A DNA stretch of 64,000 nucleotides from the human T2T-CHM13v2.0 reference genome, Homo sapiens. A model generated the notes under the pieces. That model was not told where the DNA came from. It saw nothing but the letters and a program-made list of their open reading frames with translations, and ran no database searches. The stretch lies in NCBI RefSeq assembly GCF_009914755.1, contig NC_060947.1, one strand, 5' to 3'. Of the stretch, positions 8,375 to 61,312 are shown piece by piece (position 1 is the first letter of the stretch; each line of letters starts with the position of its first letter). Both the position numbers and the translations under genes were made by a program.

Positions 8375-8807
8375 TTTTAACATTATTATTAAGGTGCTTT
8401 TCATAGCTCCCAGGATACAGTAGGCACTTAAAATTGGCTTTTGAATGAATTTATCAAGTTCCTATACCATAAAAATGCACATAAAACTACTACTAATAAT
8501 AAGCTACATTTTTGAGCTATAATGTGTCAAGCACCATGACCACAGCAGCTGTTTTAACATAAAGTAACTTGCTTAACCCTAACAATGCATCTGCAAAGTA
8601 AGTTTCCAGTAGAGATTCCCATAGATCAAGAACCTGACATCACTAGTCACACACCACTAGTAAATCACAAAGTCAGGATTTGAACTCAGGTCTGTCTTAC
8701 TGGAAAGTGACTATTAATAATGATAACAAAAATAGCAAAGACTCATGGAGTGCTTAGTACATAACAGGCATTAATACCTGTTACGTAGTAAGCAATACCC
8801 AATGTGT

Positions 8808-9004
8808 TTTTTTCAAACTCTTATTTTAAATTCACGGGTACATTTCAGGTCTGTTACATAGGTAAACTTGTGTCATGGGGGTTTGTTGTAGAGATTATCT
8901 CATCACTCAGGTAGTAAGCTTAATACCAATTAGTTATTAATATTTTCCTGATCCTCTCCCTCCTCCCACCCTCTGCCCTCCGATAGGCCCCAGTGTGTGC
9001 TGTT
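8808..9004 (-). mobile_element. Short L1PA 3' end
   Basis: tgttacataggtaaacttgtgtcatgggggtttgttgta...cctgatcctctccctcctcccaccctc...ggccccagtgtgtg. Confidence 0.9.
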
Positions 9005-9029
9005 AAACGTGCATTGAGACTGCATCTAA

Positions 9030-9336
9030 GGCCGAGTGTGGTGGCTCACGCCTGTAATCCCAACACTTTGGGAGGCTGGGGTGGGGCAGATCACTTGAGC
9101 TCAGGAATTCAAGACCAGTCTTGGCAACATGGCAAAACCCCATCTCTACAAAAATTACAAAAATTAGCCGGGTGTGCTAGTGCACGGCTGCAGTCCCAGC
9201 AGGCTTGGGGAAGTGAGGCAGCAGGATTGTTTGAGCCCGGGAGGTTGAGGCTTCAGTGAGCCATGTTCATGTCACTGTACTCCAGCCTGGGTGAAAGAGG
9301 GAGACCCTGTCTCAAAAAAAAAAAAAAAAAAAAAAA
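9030..9336 (+). mobile_element. Full-length Alu (AluJ-like)
   Basis: Dimeric Alu, ttgagcccgggaggttgagg right arm, long A tail. Confidence 0.95.
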
Positions 9337-9648
9337 GACTGTGTACAGTGTATTCTTGGTTTCCAGGGTTATAAATTAGAAAGGCACTGGAAATATTGAG
9401 AGAACTGGGGTGTCAAGATGCAAAAAAAGCAGAGGCTATCTCTTGCTCTCTCTCTTTGTCTAAAGAAGGAAGCAAAGGTAACAAAAGCCCATGCTGCAGA
9501 GGAACAATTTGGGATCTAAGTAGAGCACAAACAAACACAAACCCTTCCTGGAAACTTGGGTCAGAATCCTAGAACTAGCCAAGGCCTTGAAAAGCAAACT
9601 TGGCAAACCCCCTGATTTGTAGTCCAGAAAGCTGAAGTCCTGAGAAGG

Positions 9649-9799
9649 GGAGCAATGCAGTTTATCATCTCCCACAGGATCTCAAAGTATTTGCAAGCTC
9701 TGCAAGCAGAGGGTGGGAGGAGGGAGAGGATCAGGAAAATATTAATTTGGAGCAATGCAGTTTATCATCTCCCACAGGATCTCAAAGTATTTGCAAGCT
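9649..9799. repeat. 51-bp perfect direct repeat around a 49-bp templated insert
   Basis: ggagcaatgcag...tttgcaagct at 9649-9699 and 9749-9799; 9706-9746 is the reverse complement of 8936-8976. Confidence 0.95.
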
Positions 9800-12700
9800 T
9801 TGGAGTCTGGTGGGGTAAGGCCACTACAACATTTATCATGGGTTCTGTAGGGCCCAGAGGCAAAATGTGACAATCATGCATCTGGCACAGGTCCTGGCCC
9901 TCAAGGAGCTTACTGTCCACTGAGAGAGACAAACAAGTCATGAGCACATGAATTTAAGCCAGGAGAGAAGTTCAATCACACAGACAATGTGAGTTCTGAG
10001 GAAGTAAATCCCTTTCATTTGGTGTTAGGGTGTCAAAAGAAGCTTAGTAAAATAGATGATACTGACAAAAGACAAGTAAAATCACAAGAAGGAGAAATAC
10101 ATTTAGGTAAACTGCTATATATCAGAGGCAGAAAACTTCAGGGTGTGTTCAGCAAGAGGTAAGGGGTCTAGTTCTGCTGGAAATGAGCGCACATGAAGGA
10201 GAACAGAGGGGCATAGGCTGCTCAGTTTATTGGAAAGCCTATGGACAAGAAGCTAGGGAGGGGAGATTCTGTTCCTTAGCTGTCGTAGTCTGAGTACAGG
10301 ACGAAGCTGATAGAACTAAGCCTTAGAAAGAGGTACCTGGCACCACTTTATGTTAAATGCTGGAAAGAGAAGAGGCCAGAGAAGGAAGGCATGGGAAGCT
10401 GAAGAACAGCTAGGAGGCTATCTGTTGCAATATACAGGCAAGAGGTATCGAGTGCCTGCCTAAATGAAATAGAGAAATGCCCTGGGAAGAGGAAAGGAGG
10501 GGTGGCTGCCAGCTACACTTTTGCTTCTCTTCCATTAAGGCTATGCTTAATTGCTGAATGGCACCCAGGTGACCTGAAGCAATACCTAGTCCCAACTCAC
10601 ACCCATCTTATTCCTTAGATACTTTTGCTCCCTAAAAGGATGTGACTCACTAAATAGCTTCTGATTATTCAGTCCTTCTATTCCAGCCTGCATTTGGTCA
10701 AACTCTGGCATAATTGAACACCTTTTAACATTCTCAAATCTTAAATTTTATGATCTCATCAACACATTCCTACTGATTGCTTTCTTTCTTGTCAGAGAAA
10801 AGTATCGAAGTGGGATGCACAGGCAGAAGCCAGCCAGTTCAAACAACAGCCCTTAAACTGTGATCACATCAACAACTGCATCCCATTGTCTGTGACCACT
10901 GCTTTTCTGGGTCTTAGCTTCTAGTTGGAGCTTCTTGCTGCACCAATCCTCAAACAACAAAAGGCATCTGCCTCTCAGGATCGGCGCTACTTGGCAATTT
11001 GATATGTGCATTCAGAAACTAGCATTTACCAATCGAAATGCTTCAAAAGTAGCTGGGAGGCAAAGGGCAGGAGATCCCTGATTAATTCTCCACCATGTTC
11101 TTAGACATTCCAAGAACCCCAAAAGCCCCACAAGAGAAATTAGTCCTTGGCACTGCATGTTTACTTTTGACCTACTCAGAGCAATCTGCACTATCCTCCC
11201 ACCATTCAGTGAAGATATCTGCTAAAAATAAACTAGATGGATTTGACTTTCTCCACTAAGATAAGTTACTGATCTTAGGGTAAGGCAATAATACTCAGTA
11301 AAGCCATCTCTGTACCAACAGAACACATCTCAAATCTTACTACAACAAAGTCTGTTTAACAACTTTCACAAAGACTAAAAATGGAACCACCACAAGCAAG
11401 CAAAAGAGCTTGGAGTGATCAGCAGGGAAAAGAATAATAAAGAAGGAGGCATCAGCCTTACAGGGATGAGCACTGGGGCATGCTGCAAATACCTGTGGAG
11501 CACTATTTACTAGAACCAATGGCGAGCAAAATCATCCCTATGAAAAGAGATGTAAAATTAGTCAGTTGGTCAGCTTTCTGCAACACACCAGGTGGAGGGT
11601 ATGGTTCTAGGAGACTGGGGATAGTTGTCACAATCACACCTCAGCTTTCGCAGCCATGTGATTTCCTGCCTTCAAATTTGTCCCATCCTGATTCTAATTT
11701 ACTACCCTGCCTGTGCATGCAACTTTCAGACAGCTCCTCCTTGGAAGCTGCTTTCAGAGCTGGTCATACATACTTTGAAACATCTGCTATTGCGAGAAGA
11801 ACCAAGGGTCAGTGGAGAAGCAAGCGACAGATGGAACTGACTCAAGAAAAAGAGATAAACTCAAACCTCCCACTAGAGAGCTAAAAACTTCCAGAGATAG
11901 TGAAGTGGGCTCTAAACTTACTTCAGGATTTGGTCATCTATTATTCTGGATGTTAAAGGAAGATGTGATCCCAGAATCTACACTGGGGTATTACTTTTAC
12001 AAGCTGCTCTTCTTGGGCAGGACTACTAATGGCCTCAGTCTACTGGGGATGCTAGTGGTTCCAGCCTGCTGGATTTCCATGGAGCCAAGATGCACATGTT
12101 GGGTAGCACTCAGGACGCTGGGCTTAGGAACACGTGCAAGAGTACAACAGTATCTCTGCTGTCACAACACCCCCCATATAACTGAGCCCTCCAATAGCGA
12201 ACAAGTGTAATGCTACTATTCAGAGAACTGAATACATCATGTCCAAGTGCTTTGGCAGACATTACTTTATTAGATTCTCCCAACATTTCATGGTCAGGGT
12301 TTTTATCTCTATCAACAGATGAAGGATCTGAGACTGGGAGCAATGAAATGACTTGACCAAAGTCACTTTGCTTGGTAGAGGACGCCAGGGATAGCACCTC
12401 AGCCTAATACAGAAATGTGAATGAAGAAAAGACTAGCAAATCTGATATGCCTTTCAGATATCACATTGTCATACAGGCCGTCTCTAGTGCCTTTTTGTTT
12501 TTTTAGATGAATATCCCAAGAGAGGATTCCTTTCTTAAAAATGTGGCAGGACCCAGAAAACTAAGATTGAGAAGTGAGTTACTCTGCATCTTATGAACAT
12601 GGTAGACAGAGCTATATATCTCTGTTAATGGTGCTGCATGAAGAACTATCATGTAGTTCTAAAGTTCAGTGAAGAAAACTATACAAACTGTATGTACACA

Positions 12701-19417: not shown

Positions 19418-19499
19418 CAGTACTCAAATATGACTTATGCCCATTTAAATTGAACAAGTTCATCAGGGACTGATGGGCATAAGTCATATTTGAGTACTG
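19418..19499. repeat. Perfect inverted repeat, 27-bp arms, 28-nt loop
   Basis: cagtactcaaatatgacttatgcccat (19418-19444) / atgggcataagtcatatttgagtactg (19473-19499). Confidence 0.97.
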
Positions 19500-59499: not shown

Positions 59500-60240
59500 T
59501 GGCACCCTTTCCCCAAGGGCACACTCTTGGACCTTTGCTGCTTTCATAGCACTCCTCACCATGTGATATGTTCTACTTGTTGGTTTCTTTACTATCTCCA
59601 AACTCCACTCCACTAGAATATAAAATCCACAAAAGCAAGGAATTCACTGTCTATTTTATTATTTGGCTTATCCCTCAGAGCCGAGGACAATGCCTGGAAT
59701 GTAGTAAATGTTCAATAATTACCTGTGAAATGAATAGTAACTGCATTGACCTTTTCAAAATGTAACTGAAAATTGAATCATGTCACCCTAGGTTTAAAAT
59801 CCTTTAATGACTTCCCACTGCTGTTAGAAAAAGGTTCAAATCCAGCACCGTCTTATCCACCCTCCACTCACTCTGTCTGCTCCAGCCCTGCTGAATTTCT
59901 CTGTTTCTCTATCATGGTATTGTTTATTCTACTGATAAGCCTTCACACATGCTGGTCCCTCTAACCGCAAAGCTCTCCTCCCTTCTCATCATATAATGAC
60001 CCCTCCACATTCTTCCATCCCAGCTGAAAAGTCAATTTCCTGGAAAAGTCCGTCAGGTTTGTACATCTCCTTTGCAGTTTCTTCCTACTTCTCTTATTAA
60101 CTTATGTATATTTAGTTCTTCAATGTTCTGTTTCTCTGAATAAACCATTAACATGGAGACCATATATATTCTATTCAATACTCTGGTTTCCAGTAGGCAC
60201 ATAATAGGTACTCAGTGAATATTTCTTAACTAACTGCTAA
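58240..60240 (+). mobile_element. Cluster of L2 fragments
   Basis: aaatctacatctccagcc, tccagactcatatatcc, caatgcctggaatgtagtaaatgttcaata, ggcacataataggtactcagtgaatattt. Confidence 0.75.
59408..59497. repeat. Compound STR: (GATA)n followed by (CA)n
   Basis: tagatagatgatagatag... (~12 units) then acacac... (~15 units). Confidence 0.98.
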
Positions 60241-61164: not shown

Positions 61165-61312
61165 TGTCATCATCCACATATCGCATGTAACTGAAAATTG
61201 AATCATGTTACCCTAGGCTTAAAATCCTTTAATGACTTCCCACTGCTATTAGAAAAAGGTTCAAATCCAGCACCATCTTGGATGGTTGATATGTCATCAT
61301 CCACATATCACA
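61165..61312. repeat. 21-bp direct repeat flanking a 95-bp copy of 59760-59854
   Basis: tgtcatcatccacatatcgca / tgtcatcatccacatatcaca; 61185-61279 matches 59760-59854 with 4 substitutions. Confidence 0.93.

What the first reader, a model, noticed from the sequence alone, without database searches (positions are those of the whole stretch)
9649..9799. Perfect 51-bp duplication enclosing an inverted 41-bp copy of a nearby L1 segment
Seen: identical 51-mers at 9649-9699 and 9749-9799. The spacer consists of a short re-copy (tgcaagc) plus 9706-9746, the exact reverse complement of 8936-8976 (~750 bp away). The copy includes the ttaatattttcc variant that appears peculiar to this L1 copy. Established: duplications with locally templated, often inverted inserts and microhomology typify replication template switching (FoSTeS/MMBIR) or polymerase-theta end joining. 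Inference: zero divergence implies a very recent 100-bp insertion that may be lineage-specific or polymorphic.
Basis: partly seen in the sequence, partly recalled or inferred. Interest (0 to 1): 0.7.

Follow-up and report, generated by a model that had tools for sequence, protein, structure and literature searches.

The report
Human-lineage patchwork DNA repair scar
This is a real 100-base insertion in an intron of the FGF13 gene, listed as human-lineage in a published ape alignment and made entirely of short copies of nearby DNA; it is likely an ordinary scar of error-prone break repair and probably has no function.

Summary
The 51-mers at 9649-9699 and 9749-9799 are identical, and 9706-9746 is the reverse complement of 8936-8976. 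Genome-wide, the 41-mer occurs exactly only at those two places, and it carries the donor's private 5-nt insertion, so the local L1 copy is the template. A finer parse places all 100 bases: a 53-bp tandem duplication with 4-nt GGAG microhomology whose first copy is interrupted by 47 locally copied bases. One bottom-strand path of five switches (microhomologies or stems of 1-4 nt) reproduces the insertion exactly. Makova 2024 Table S24 lists this same interval (chrX:137,401,648-137,401,748) as a human-branch insertion. Their stricter list omits it, but also omits 14 of 26 small S24 rows nearby. Zero divergence alone bounds age only loosely (under 3.2%). Indirect evidence suggests GRCh38 shares it; fixation was not tested. 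Likely cause: serial microhomology-primed copying at a broken end (polymerase-theta-like); fork template switching is the main rival because the template is about 750 nt away. It is a new instance of a known class. One oddity: the event creates a splice-acceptor-like site on the FGF13 sense strand, with no good donor nearby and no evidence of use.

The parts
9649..9748 (+). The 100-bp insertion, left-aligned, as listed for the human branch
   Evidence: Makova 2024 Supplementary Table S24 row chrX 137401648-137401748
9649..9699 (+). First copy of the duplicated unit (51 of 53 nt, up to the interruption); begins with the GGAG microhomology
9698..9711 (.). 6-bp perfect hairpin with a 2-nt loop across the first junction; base 9700 is explained by a short snap-back (inferred)
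9701..9707 (+). 7-nt re-copy of 9692-9698; its last 2 nt are shared with the inverted segment
9706..9746 (-). 41-nt inverted copy of 8936-8976
9746..9752 (+). Second junction, equal to 9799-9805: 1-nt microhomology, 2 nt from the right flank, 4-nt GGAG microhomology
9749..9801 (+). Second, uninterrupted copy of the 53-bp unit
9802..9805 (+). Pre-existing GGAG, 53 nt from the GGAG at the unit start in the pre-insertion allele
   Evidence: such a 4-mer match at 53-nt spacing occurs at 404 of 63,940 window positions
8805..9004 (-). Old ~200-bp repeat fragment holding the template; L1 3' UTR of an old primate subfamily (family label recalled, from no call)
   Evidence: 40 scored genomic relatives besides itself and including it at 81-87% (others) from 1,908 candidates; 60-62% to two young human-specific poly(T)-led insertions L054 and L064
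8936..8976 (+). Template segment, including a private 5-nt insertion at about 8938-8942
9700..9745 (-). Splice-acceptor-like arrangement on the FGF13 sense strand made by the event: branch motifs at -43 and -32, 18 of 20 pyrimidines, CAG ending at 9700; use not shown

Best explanation
This is a 100-bp intronic insertion built wholly from local sequence, listed as human-branch in a published ape alignment, and likely made in one germ-line event when a loose 3' end at a DNA break repeatedly primed on 1-4 nt microhomologies (polymerase-theta-like, SD-MMEJ type). Shown: all 100 bases can be assigned to local templates. Read on the bottom strand, the path is: slip 53 nt at GGAG and add 3 nt; jump to the opposite strand of the L1 fragment about 750 nt away (1-nt microhomology) and add 40 nt; return (2 nt) and add 5 nt; snap back on a 3-bp stem and add 3 nt; re-anneal (2 nt) and copy the remaining 49 nt. 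Inferred: the direction, the order and the enzyme. A top-strand path also works but leaves one base untemplated. I put the class (one serial local-copying event) at about 0.9 and the break-end/theta version at about 0.6. The product is likely neutral.
For: The path sums to 3+40+5+3+49 = 100 and equals the minus strand of 9649-9748 exactly. The template is unique and carries a private marker; the chance that any of the 10 other places matching the first 34 nt lies within 1 kb is about 6e-6. Four of the five switches return to one ~14-nt spot, as iterative end repair would. Published passages describe theta insertions as patchworks of several small segments primed by minimal pairing (PMC12426944), snap-back and multi-round synthesis even with tiny loops (PMC2943611), and ~50-bp tandem duplications with junction microhomology made by theta joining at 3' overhangs (PMC8355091). 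Human-branch origin: Table S24.
Against: Theta templates are reported within about 20 bp of the break (PMC11541566; that search reached only 500 bp) and inserts are generally under 25 bp; here one template is 41 nt long and about 750 nt away. The long jump has only 1 nt of microhomology on the bottom-strand path. The short junction matches were parsed after seeing the sequence, so several parses were possible. The interval is missing from the same paper's PAV-based human-specific list. No ape sequence or raw read was seen here.
Confidence: 0.6

Rival explanations
1. Replication-fork template switching (FoSTeS/MMBIR) without theta joining: a stalled, leftward-moving nascent bottom strand switched to the exposed opposite-strand template about 750 nt ahead, then returned and re-copied 51 nt.
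For: On the bottom-strand path the donor lies ahead of the nascent strand and on the other strand, which is the geometry of a leading-to-lagging switch (inference). The distance and 41-nt length exceed typical theta templates.
Against: Three further 3-5 nt micro-steps, including a snap-back, cluster at one point, which is more typical of iterative end joining. Sequence alone cannot separate the two mechanisms.
Confidence: 0.3
2. Two independent events: a plain 53-bp tandem duplication, and a separate 47-nt templated insertion into its first copy.
For: The two parts can be described separately; small tandem duplications are the commonest short insertions (PMC8355091 introduction).
Against: The insert sits 2 nt from the duplication junction; Table S24 gives one 100-bp block on one branch.
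Confidence: 0.04
3. Assembly artefact, or a mutation private to the CHM13 cell line.
For: Perfect identity of both copies; no reads or second human assembly were seen here; Table S24 uses the same CHM13 assembly.
Against: An assembler has no route to a five-step microhomology patchwork (inference). The table of CHM1/CHM13 duplicative insertions against GRCh38 lists the two neighbouring events but none at the mapped site, which suggests GRCh38 also has it; that table is filtered, so this is weak.
Confidence: 0.04
4. A tiny L1 retrotransposition, or a copy from a distant L1, with a 51-bp target-site duplication.
For: The insert is L1-like sequence between direct repeats; Table S24 is captioned as most likely reflecting TE insertions; 9 other copies match the first 34 nt exactly.
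Against: No poly(A) tail; the segment is internal to an old fragment about 84-87% like its nearest relatives; only the local copy has the last 7 nt; the true human-specific retro-insertions checked show poly(T)/poly(A) and short flanking duplications.
Confidence: 0.02

Closest known systems
Polymerase-theta-mediated end joining / synthesis-dependent MMEJ templated insertions (PMC2943611, PMC12426944, PMC11541566; passages read)
   Same: Patchwork of locally copied segments, priming on 1-4 nt, snap-back inverted repeat at a junction, several rounds.
   Different: One template is 41 nt and about 750 nt away, beyond the ~20-bp window and <25-bp size usually reported; the net result is a duplication, not a deletion.
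FoSTeS / MMBIR complex rearrangements (described in the PMC11541566 introduction; otherwise recalled)
   Same: Duplication with an embedded inverted segment from nearby, microhomology at switches, no sequence lost.
   Different: Miniature scale (100 bp in all) with extra 3-5 nt micro-steps.
Small tandem duplications from staggered breaks (PMC8355091; passages read)
   Same: About 50-bp unit with junction microhomology, as reported for theta-made duplications at 3' overhangs.
   Different: The first copy is interrupted by 47 templated bases.
Human lineage-specific insertion chrX:137,401,648-137,401,748 in Makova 2024 Table S24 (PMC11168930)
   Same: Identical interval and length.
   Different: Listed as coordinates only, under a caption assuming TE insertions; no anatomy or mechanism is given in the rows and passages I saw.

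Membership tests
TMEJ / SD-MMEJ templated insertion | Inserted bases copied from sequence flanking the junction, with priming and resolving microhomology | tested here: met
   All 100 bases assigned; microhomologies 4, 1, 2 and 2 nt and a 3-bp stem
TMEJ / SD-MMEJ templated insertion | Junction lies within half of a repeat of 4 bp or more within 20 bp (SD-MMEJ criterion) | tested here: met
   7-nt re-copy, 6-bp hairpin and 7-nt flank match; the criterion is often met by chance (18-54% in that paper)
TMEJ / SD-MMEJ templated insertion | Templates short (<25 bp) and within about 20 bp of the break | tested here: not met
   Met by the three micro-segments, not by the 41-nt segment about 750 nt away
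TMEJ / SD-MMEJ templated insertion | Dependence on POLQ | not testable with these tools
   Historical germ-line event; so it is filed as 'works like', not as a member
FoSTeS / MMBIR | Serial template switches with microhomology giving duplication plus inverted segment | tested here: met
FoSTeS / MMBIR | Origin at a stalled or broken replication fork | not testable with these tools
   Fork direction and timing cannot be read from the sequence
L1 retrotransposition (TPRT) | 3' poly(A) tail and short target-site duplication | tested here: not met
   No tail; flanking repeat is 51-53 bp with microhomology
L1 retrotransposition (TPRT) | Source is a young, active-type element | tested here: not met
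   Source is a ~200-bp fragment, 81-87% to its best relatives and 60-62% to young insertions
Human-lineage insertion | Absent from the reconstructed human-Pan ancestor | tested here: met
   By look-up in Table S24, not by my own alignment
Human-lineage insertion | Called as deleted in all six apes (PAV list) | tested here: inconclusive
   No row, but 21 of 59 neighbouring S24 rows, and 14 of 26 of 200 bp or less, also have none
Functional 3' splice site / exon | Branch motif, pyrimidine tract, YAG, AG-free zone | tested here: met
   Crude motif scan only; tract is C-rich (5 T of 20)
Functional 3' splice site / exon | Usable downstream donor or poly(A) site | tested here: not met
   Best GT site within 700 nt matches 6 of 9 consensus positions; nearest AATAAA is 2,047 nt on
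Functional 3' splice site / exon | Spliced reads | not testable with these tools
   No RNA-seq here; no annotated exon in the window (annotation supplied with the finding)

The most novel reading that the evidence does not exclude
One repair event flipped an L1 pyrimidine tract into the FGF13 sense strand and, with its snap-back base at 9700, completed a new branch-point/tract/CAG acceptor. If spliced in brain or heart, it would give the long FGF13 transcripts a human-specific cryptic or terminal exon born in a single mutation.
Probability: 0.04. Interest if true: 0.65.

Novelty: new member of a known kind. Interest (0 to 1): 0.2.

Why it matters
As it stands it is a clean teaching example: every base of a human-lineage insertion can be traced to local templates, and it shows that coordinate lists of 'likely TE insertions' contain repair scars. 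It also shows micro-patchwork and a 750-nt jump in one event, blurring the line between theta joining and fork switching. It would matter more only if the new acceptor-like site is used in FGF13, a neuronal gene.

Tried and rejected
Distant L1 source or retrotransposition: rejected by the private marker. Stable secondary structure as a trigger: none of six folded stretches beat shuffles (z -0.62 to +0.71). An alternative 9-nt template for the first junction at 9427-9435 was noted but is not needed, since the 41-nt match covers 7 of its 9 bases. Base rate: 20 of 69 planned stretches were obtained, holding 24 rows of the PAV human-specific list; by eye 14 were tandem-repeat expansions, 8 retroelement pieces, 2 other, and 0 of 24 had this anatomy, so the anatomy is uncommon among such rows but the sample is small. 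Human frequency: the two large call-set papers and the deletion-breakpoint paper I looked for were not held. Yoo 2025 passages gave nothing on this site. Hellen and Kern 2015 describe supplements S1-S8 as enrichment and selection tables, so I did not open them. A search for FGF13 with cryptic exon returned one paper whose FGF13 passages concern expression only. Searches returned no papers. No protein tools were used: the feature is intronic and 100 bp long.

Full report
Observation. The window shows identical 51-mers at 9649-9699 and 9749-9799, and 9706-9746 is the exact reverse complement of 8936-8976; neither match extends. They are the two longest of 20 non-simple exact repeats of at least 20 nt in the window. 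In the whole assembly the 51-mer occurs only at these two places at up to 3 mismatches, so the duplicated DNA is unique sequence.

The template is local. The 41-mer occurs exactly only at the donor and the insert; one further place matches with 3 mismatches. The first 34 nt are less specific: 11 exact places, 9 of them elsewhere. The last 7 nt decide it. The donor carries a 5-nt insertion that 42 of 43 other family copies lack (35 with exactly a 5-nt gap, 7 with 4-9 nt, 1 with none), none of them holds the 15-nt tail, and the insert includes it. These 43 copies are the best-scoring ones returned, not a random sample. The donor is a ~200-bp fragment 81-87% like its best relatives and 60-62% like two young human-specific insertions; calling it an old L1 3' UTR is from recall.

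Anatomy. Matching each insert position against the window with the 100 bp removed shows that 9701-9707 repeats 9692-9698 and that 9746-9752 repeats 9799-9805. So the duplicated unit is 53 bp, bounded by a 4-nt GGAG microhomology that occurs at that spacing at 404 of 63,940 window positions, and its first copy is interrupted by 47 nt (9700-9746). A 6-bp hairpin with a 2-nt loop spans the first junction. Read on the bottom strand, five steps of 3, 40, 5, 3 and 49 nt reproduce the 100 bp exactly, primed by 4, 1 and 2 nt of microhomology, a 3-bp stem and 2 nt (the 3-nt check printed for the last step used the derived allele and does not count). A top-strand path also works, with a 6-nt match for the long jump but one untemplated base. 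These parses were made after seeing the sequence; direction and order are inferred.

Age. No differences in 92 paired sites only bounds pairwise divergence below 3.2% (95%); the chance is 0.33 at 1.2% and 0.002 at 6.5%. The better evidence is published. Makova 2024 (PMC11168930; passages; supplement searches and parts) extracted insertions of 70 bp to 15 kb against the parent node of a seven-ape Cactus alignment, and Table S24 lists human chrX 137401648-137401748, which is window 9649-9748. Against this, their PAV list of 1,711 human-specific X variants has rows at 137,386,198 and 137,471,825 but none here. That list needs a deletion call in all six apes and misses 21 of the 59 S24 rows on the part I read, and 14 of 26 rows of 200 bp or less, so the gap weighs little. 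Its coordinates fit this assembly: flanking duplications fall on the listed ends. Their main supplementary PDF was too large to read and may bear on the two methods.

Shared among humans? Not tested directly. Huddleston 2017 (PMC5411763; supplement searches only) lists CHM1/CHM13 insertions against GRCh38 that are duplications. Between 137 and 141 Mb it has two rows, of 121 and 94 bp, which match S24 rows of the same sizes and fix the offset at 1,689,695-1,689,955; nothing falls at the mapped site near 139,091,340-139,091,600. This suggests GRCh38 has the insertion too, but the table excludes mobile-element and tandem-repeat calls, so it is weak. For context, Hellen and Kern 2015 (PMC4419785; passages) found 2,712 of 23,981 human-specific insertions polymorphic.

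Mechanism. Polymerase-theta insertions are described as patchworks of small segments primed by minimal pairing, generally under 25 bp (PMC12426944, passages). SD-MMEJ includes snap-back and multi-round synthesis (PMC2943611, passages). Theta-made tandem duplications at ~50-nt 3' overhangs span most of the overhang and show microhomology (PMC8355091, passages). These fit the 53-bp unit and the three micro-steps. Against them, templates at fragile-site junctions lay within about 20 bp, in a search reaching 500 bp (PMC11541566, passages and section 12), while ours is about 750 nt away, which suits a fork switch. I put one serial local-copying event at about 0.9, split roughly 0.6 break-end and 0.3 fork. 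One defining theta feature was tested and not met, so it is filed as working like theta joining, not as a member.

How common. Of 24 rows of the PAV list examined (20 of 69 planned stretches), 14 were tandem-repeat expansions, 8 retroelement pieces and 2 other, by eye; none had this anatomy. The class itself is well described, and S24 has about 1,400 human X rows before this one.

Possible consequence. FGF13 is on the minus strand. There the insert reads as branch motifs at -43 and -32, 18 pyrimidines in 20, a 67-nt AG-free zone and CAG ending at 9700; the pre-insertion allele has no AG at that point. With cut-offs set at this site's own values, 2 of 4,679 AG sites in the window pass; with looser cut-offs 28 pass, so such sites are not rare in an exon-free intron. 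The tract is C-rich, the best GT within 700 nt matches 6 of 9 consensus positions (a score reached or beaten by 603 of 3,548 GT sites in the window), and the nearest AATAAA is 2 kb on. One literature search found no report of such an exon. I give use of this site 0.04.

Verdict. Real, human-lineage by published alignment, locally templated, and a new instance of a known kind of mutation. Its coordinates were already tabulated; I found no description of its anatomy in the searches run (listings only unless named above). Interest 0.2.

Noticed in passing
window 19418-19444 and 19473-19499: Perfect 27-nt inverted repeat with a 28-nt spacer, unique in the genome at up to 2 mismatches; possibly another local template-switch scar.
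   Followed up: partly
window 59760-59850 and 61185-61275: Near-identical direct copies 1,425 nt apart, in exact blocks of 24, 29 and 26 nt.
   Followed up: no
window 32246/32268, 42120/42135, 28705/28726: Short perfect tandem duplications with 22-, 15- and 21-nt periods.
   Followed up: no
window 9027-9345: Alu-like element (label recalled) antisense to FGF13, between donor and insertion; its poly(T) gives an acceptor-like site at 9307 on the minus strand.
   Followed up: no
window 8935-8942: The donor's private 5-nt insertion forms an 8-nt palindrome, and the inverted copy ends inside it; it may be an older small templated change.
   Followed up: no
L057:2002-2071 (chrX 115,399,095-115,399,165): Listed human-specific 70-nt AT-rich insertion that looks like iterative copying of a short motif.
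   Followed up: no
L055:2002-2058 (chrX 114,766,236-114,766,293): Listed human-specific 57-nt insertion with a ~15-nt flanking duplication and no template within 2 kb.
   Followed up: no
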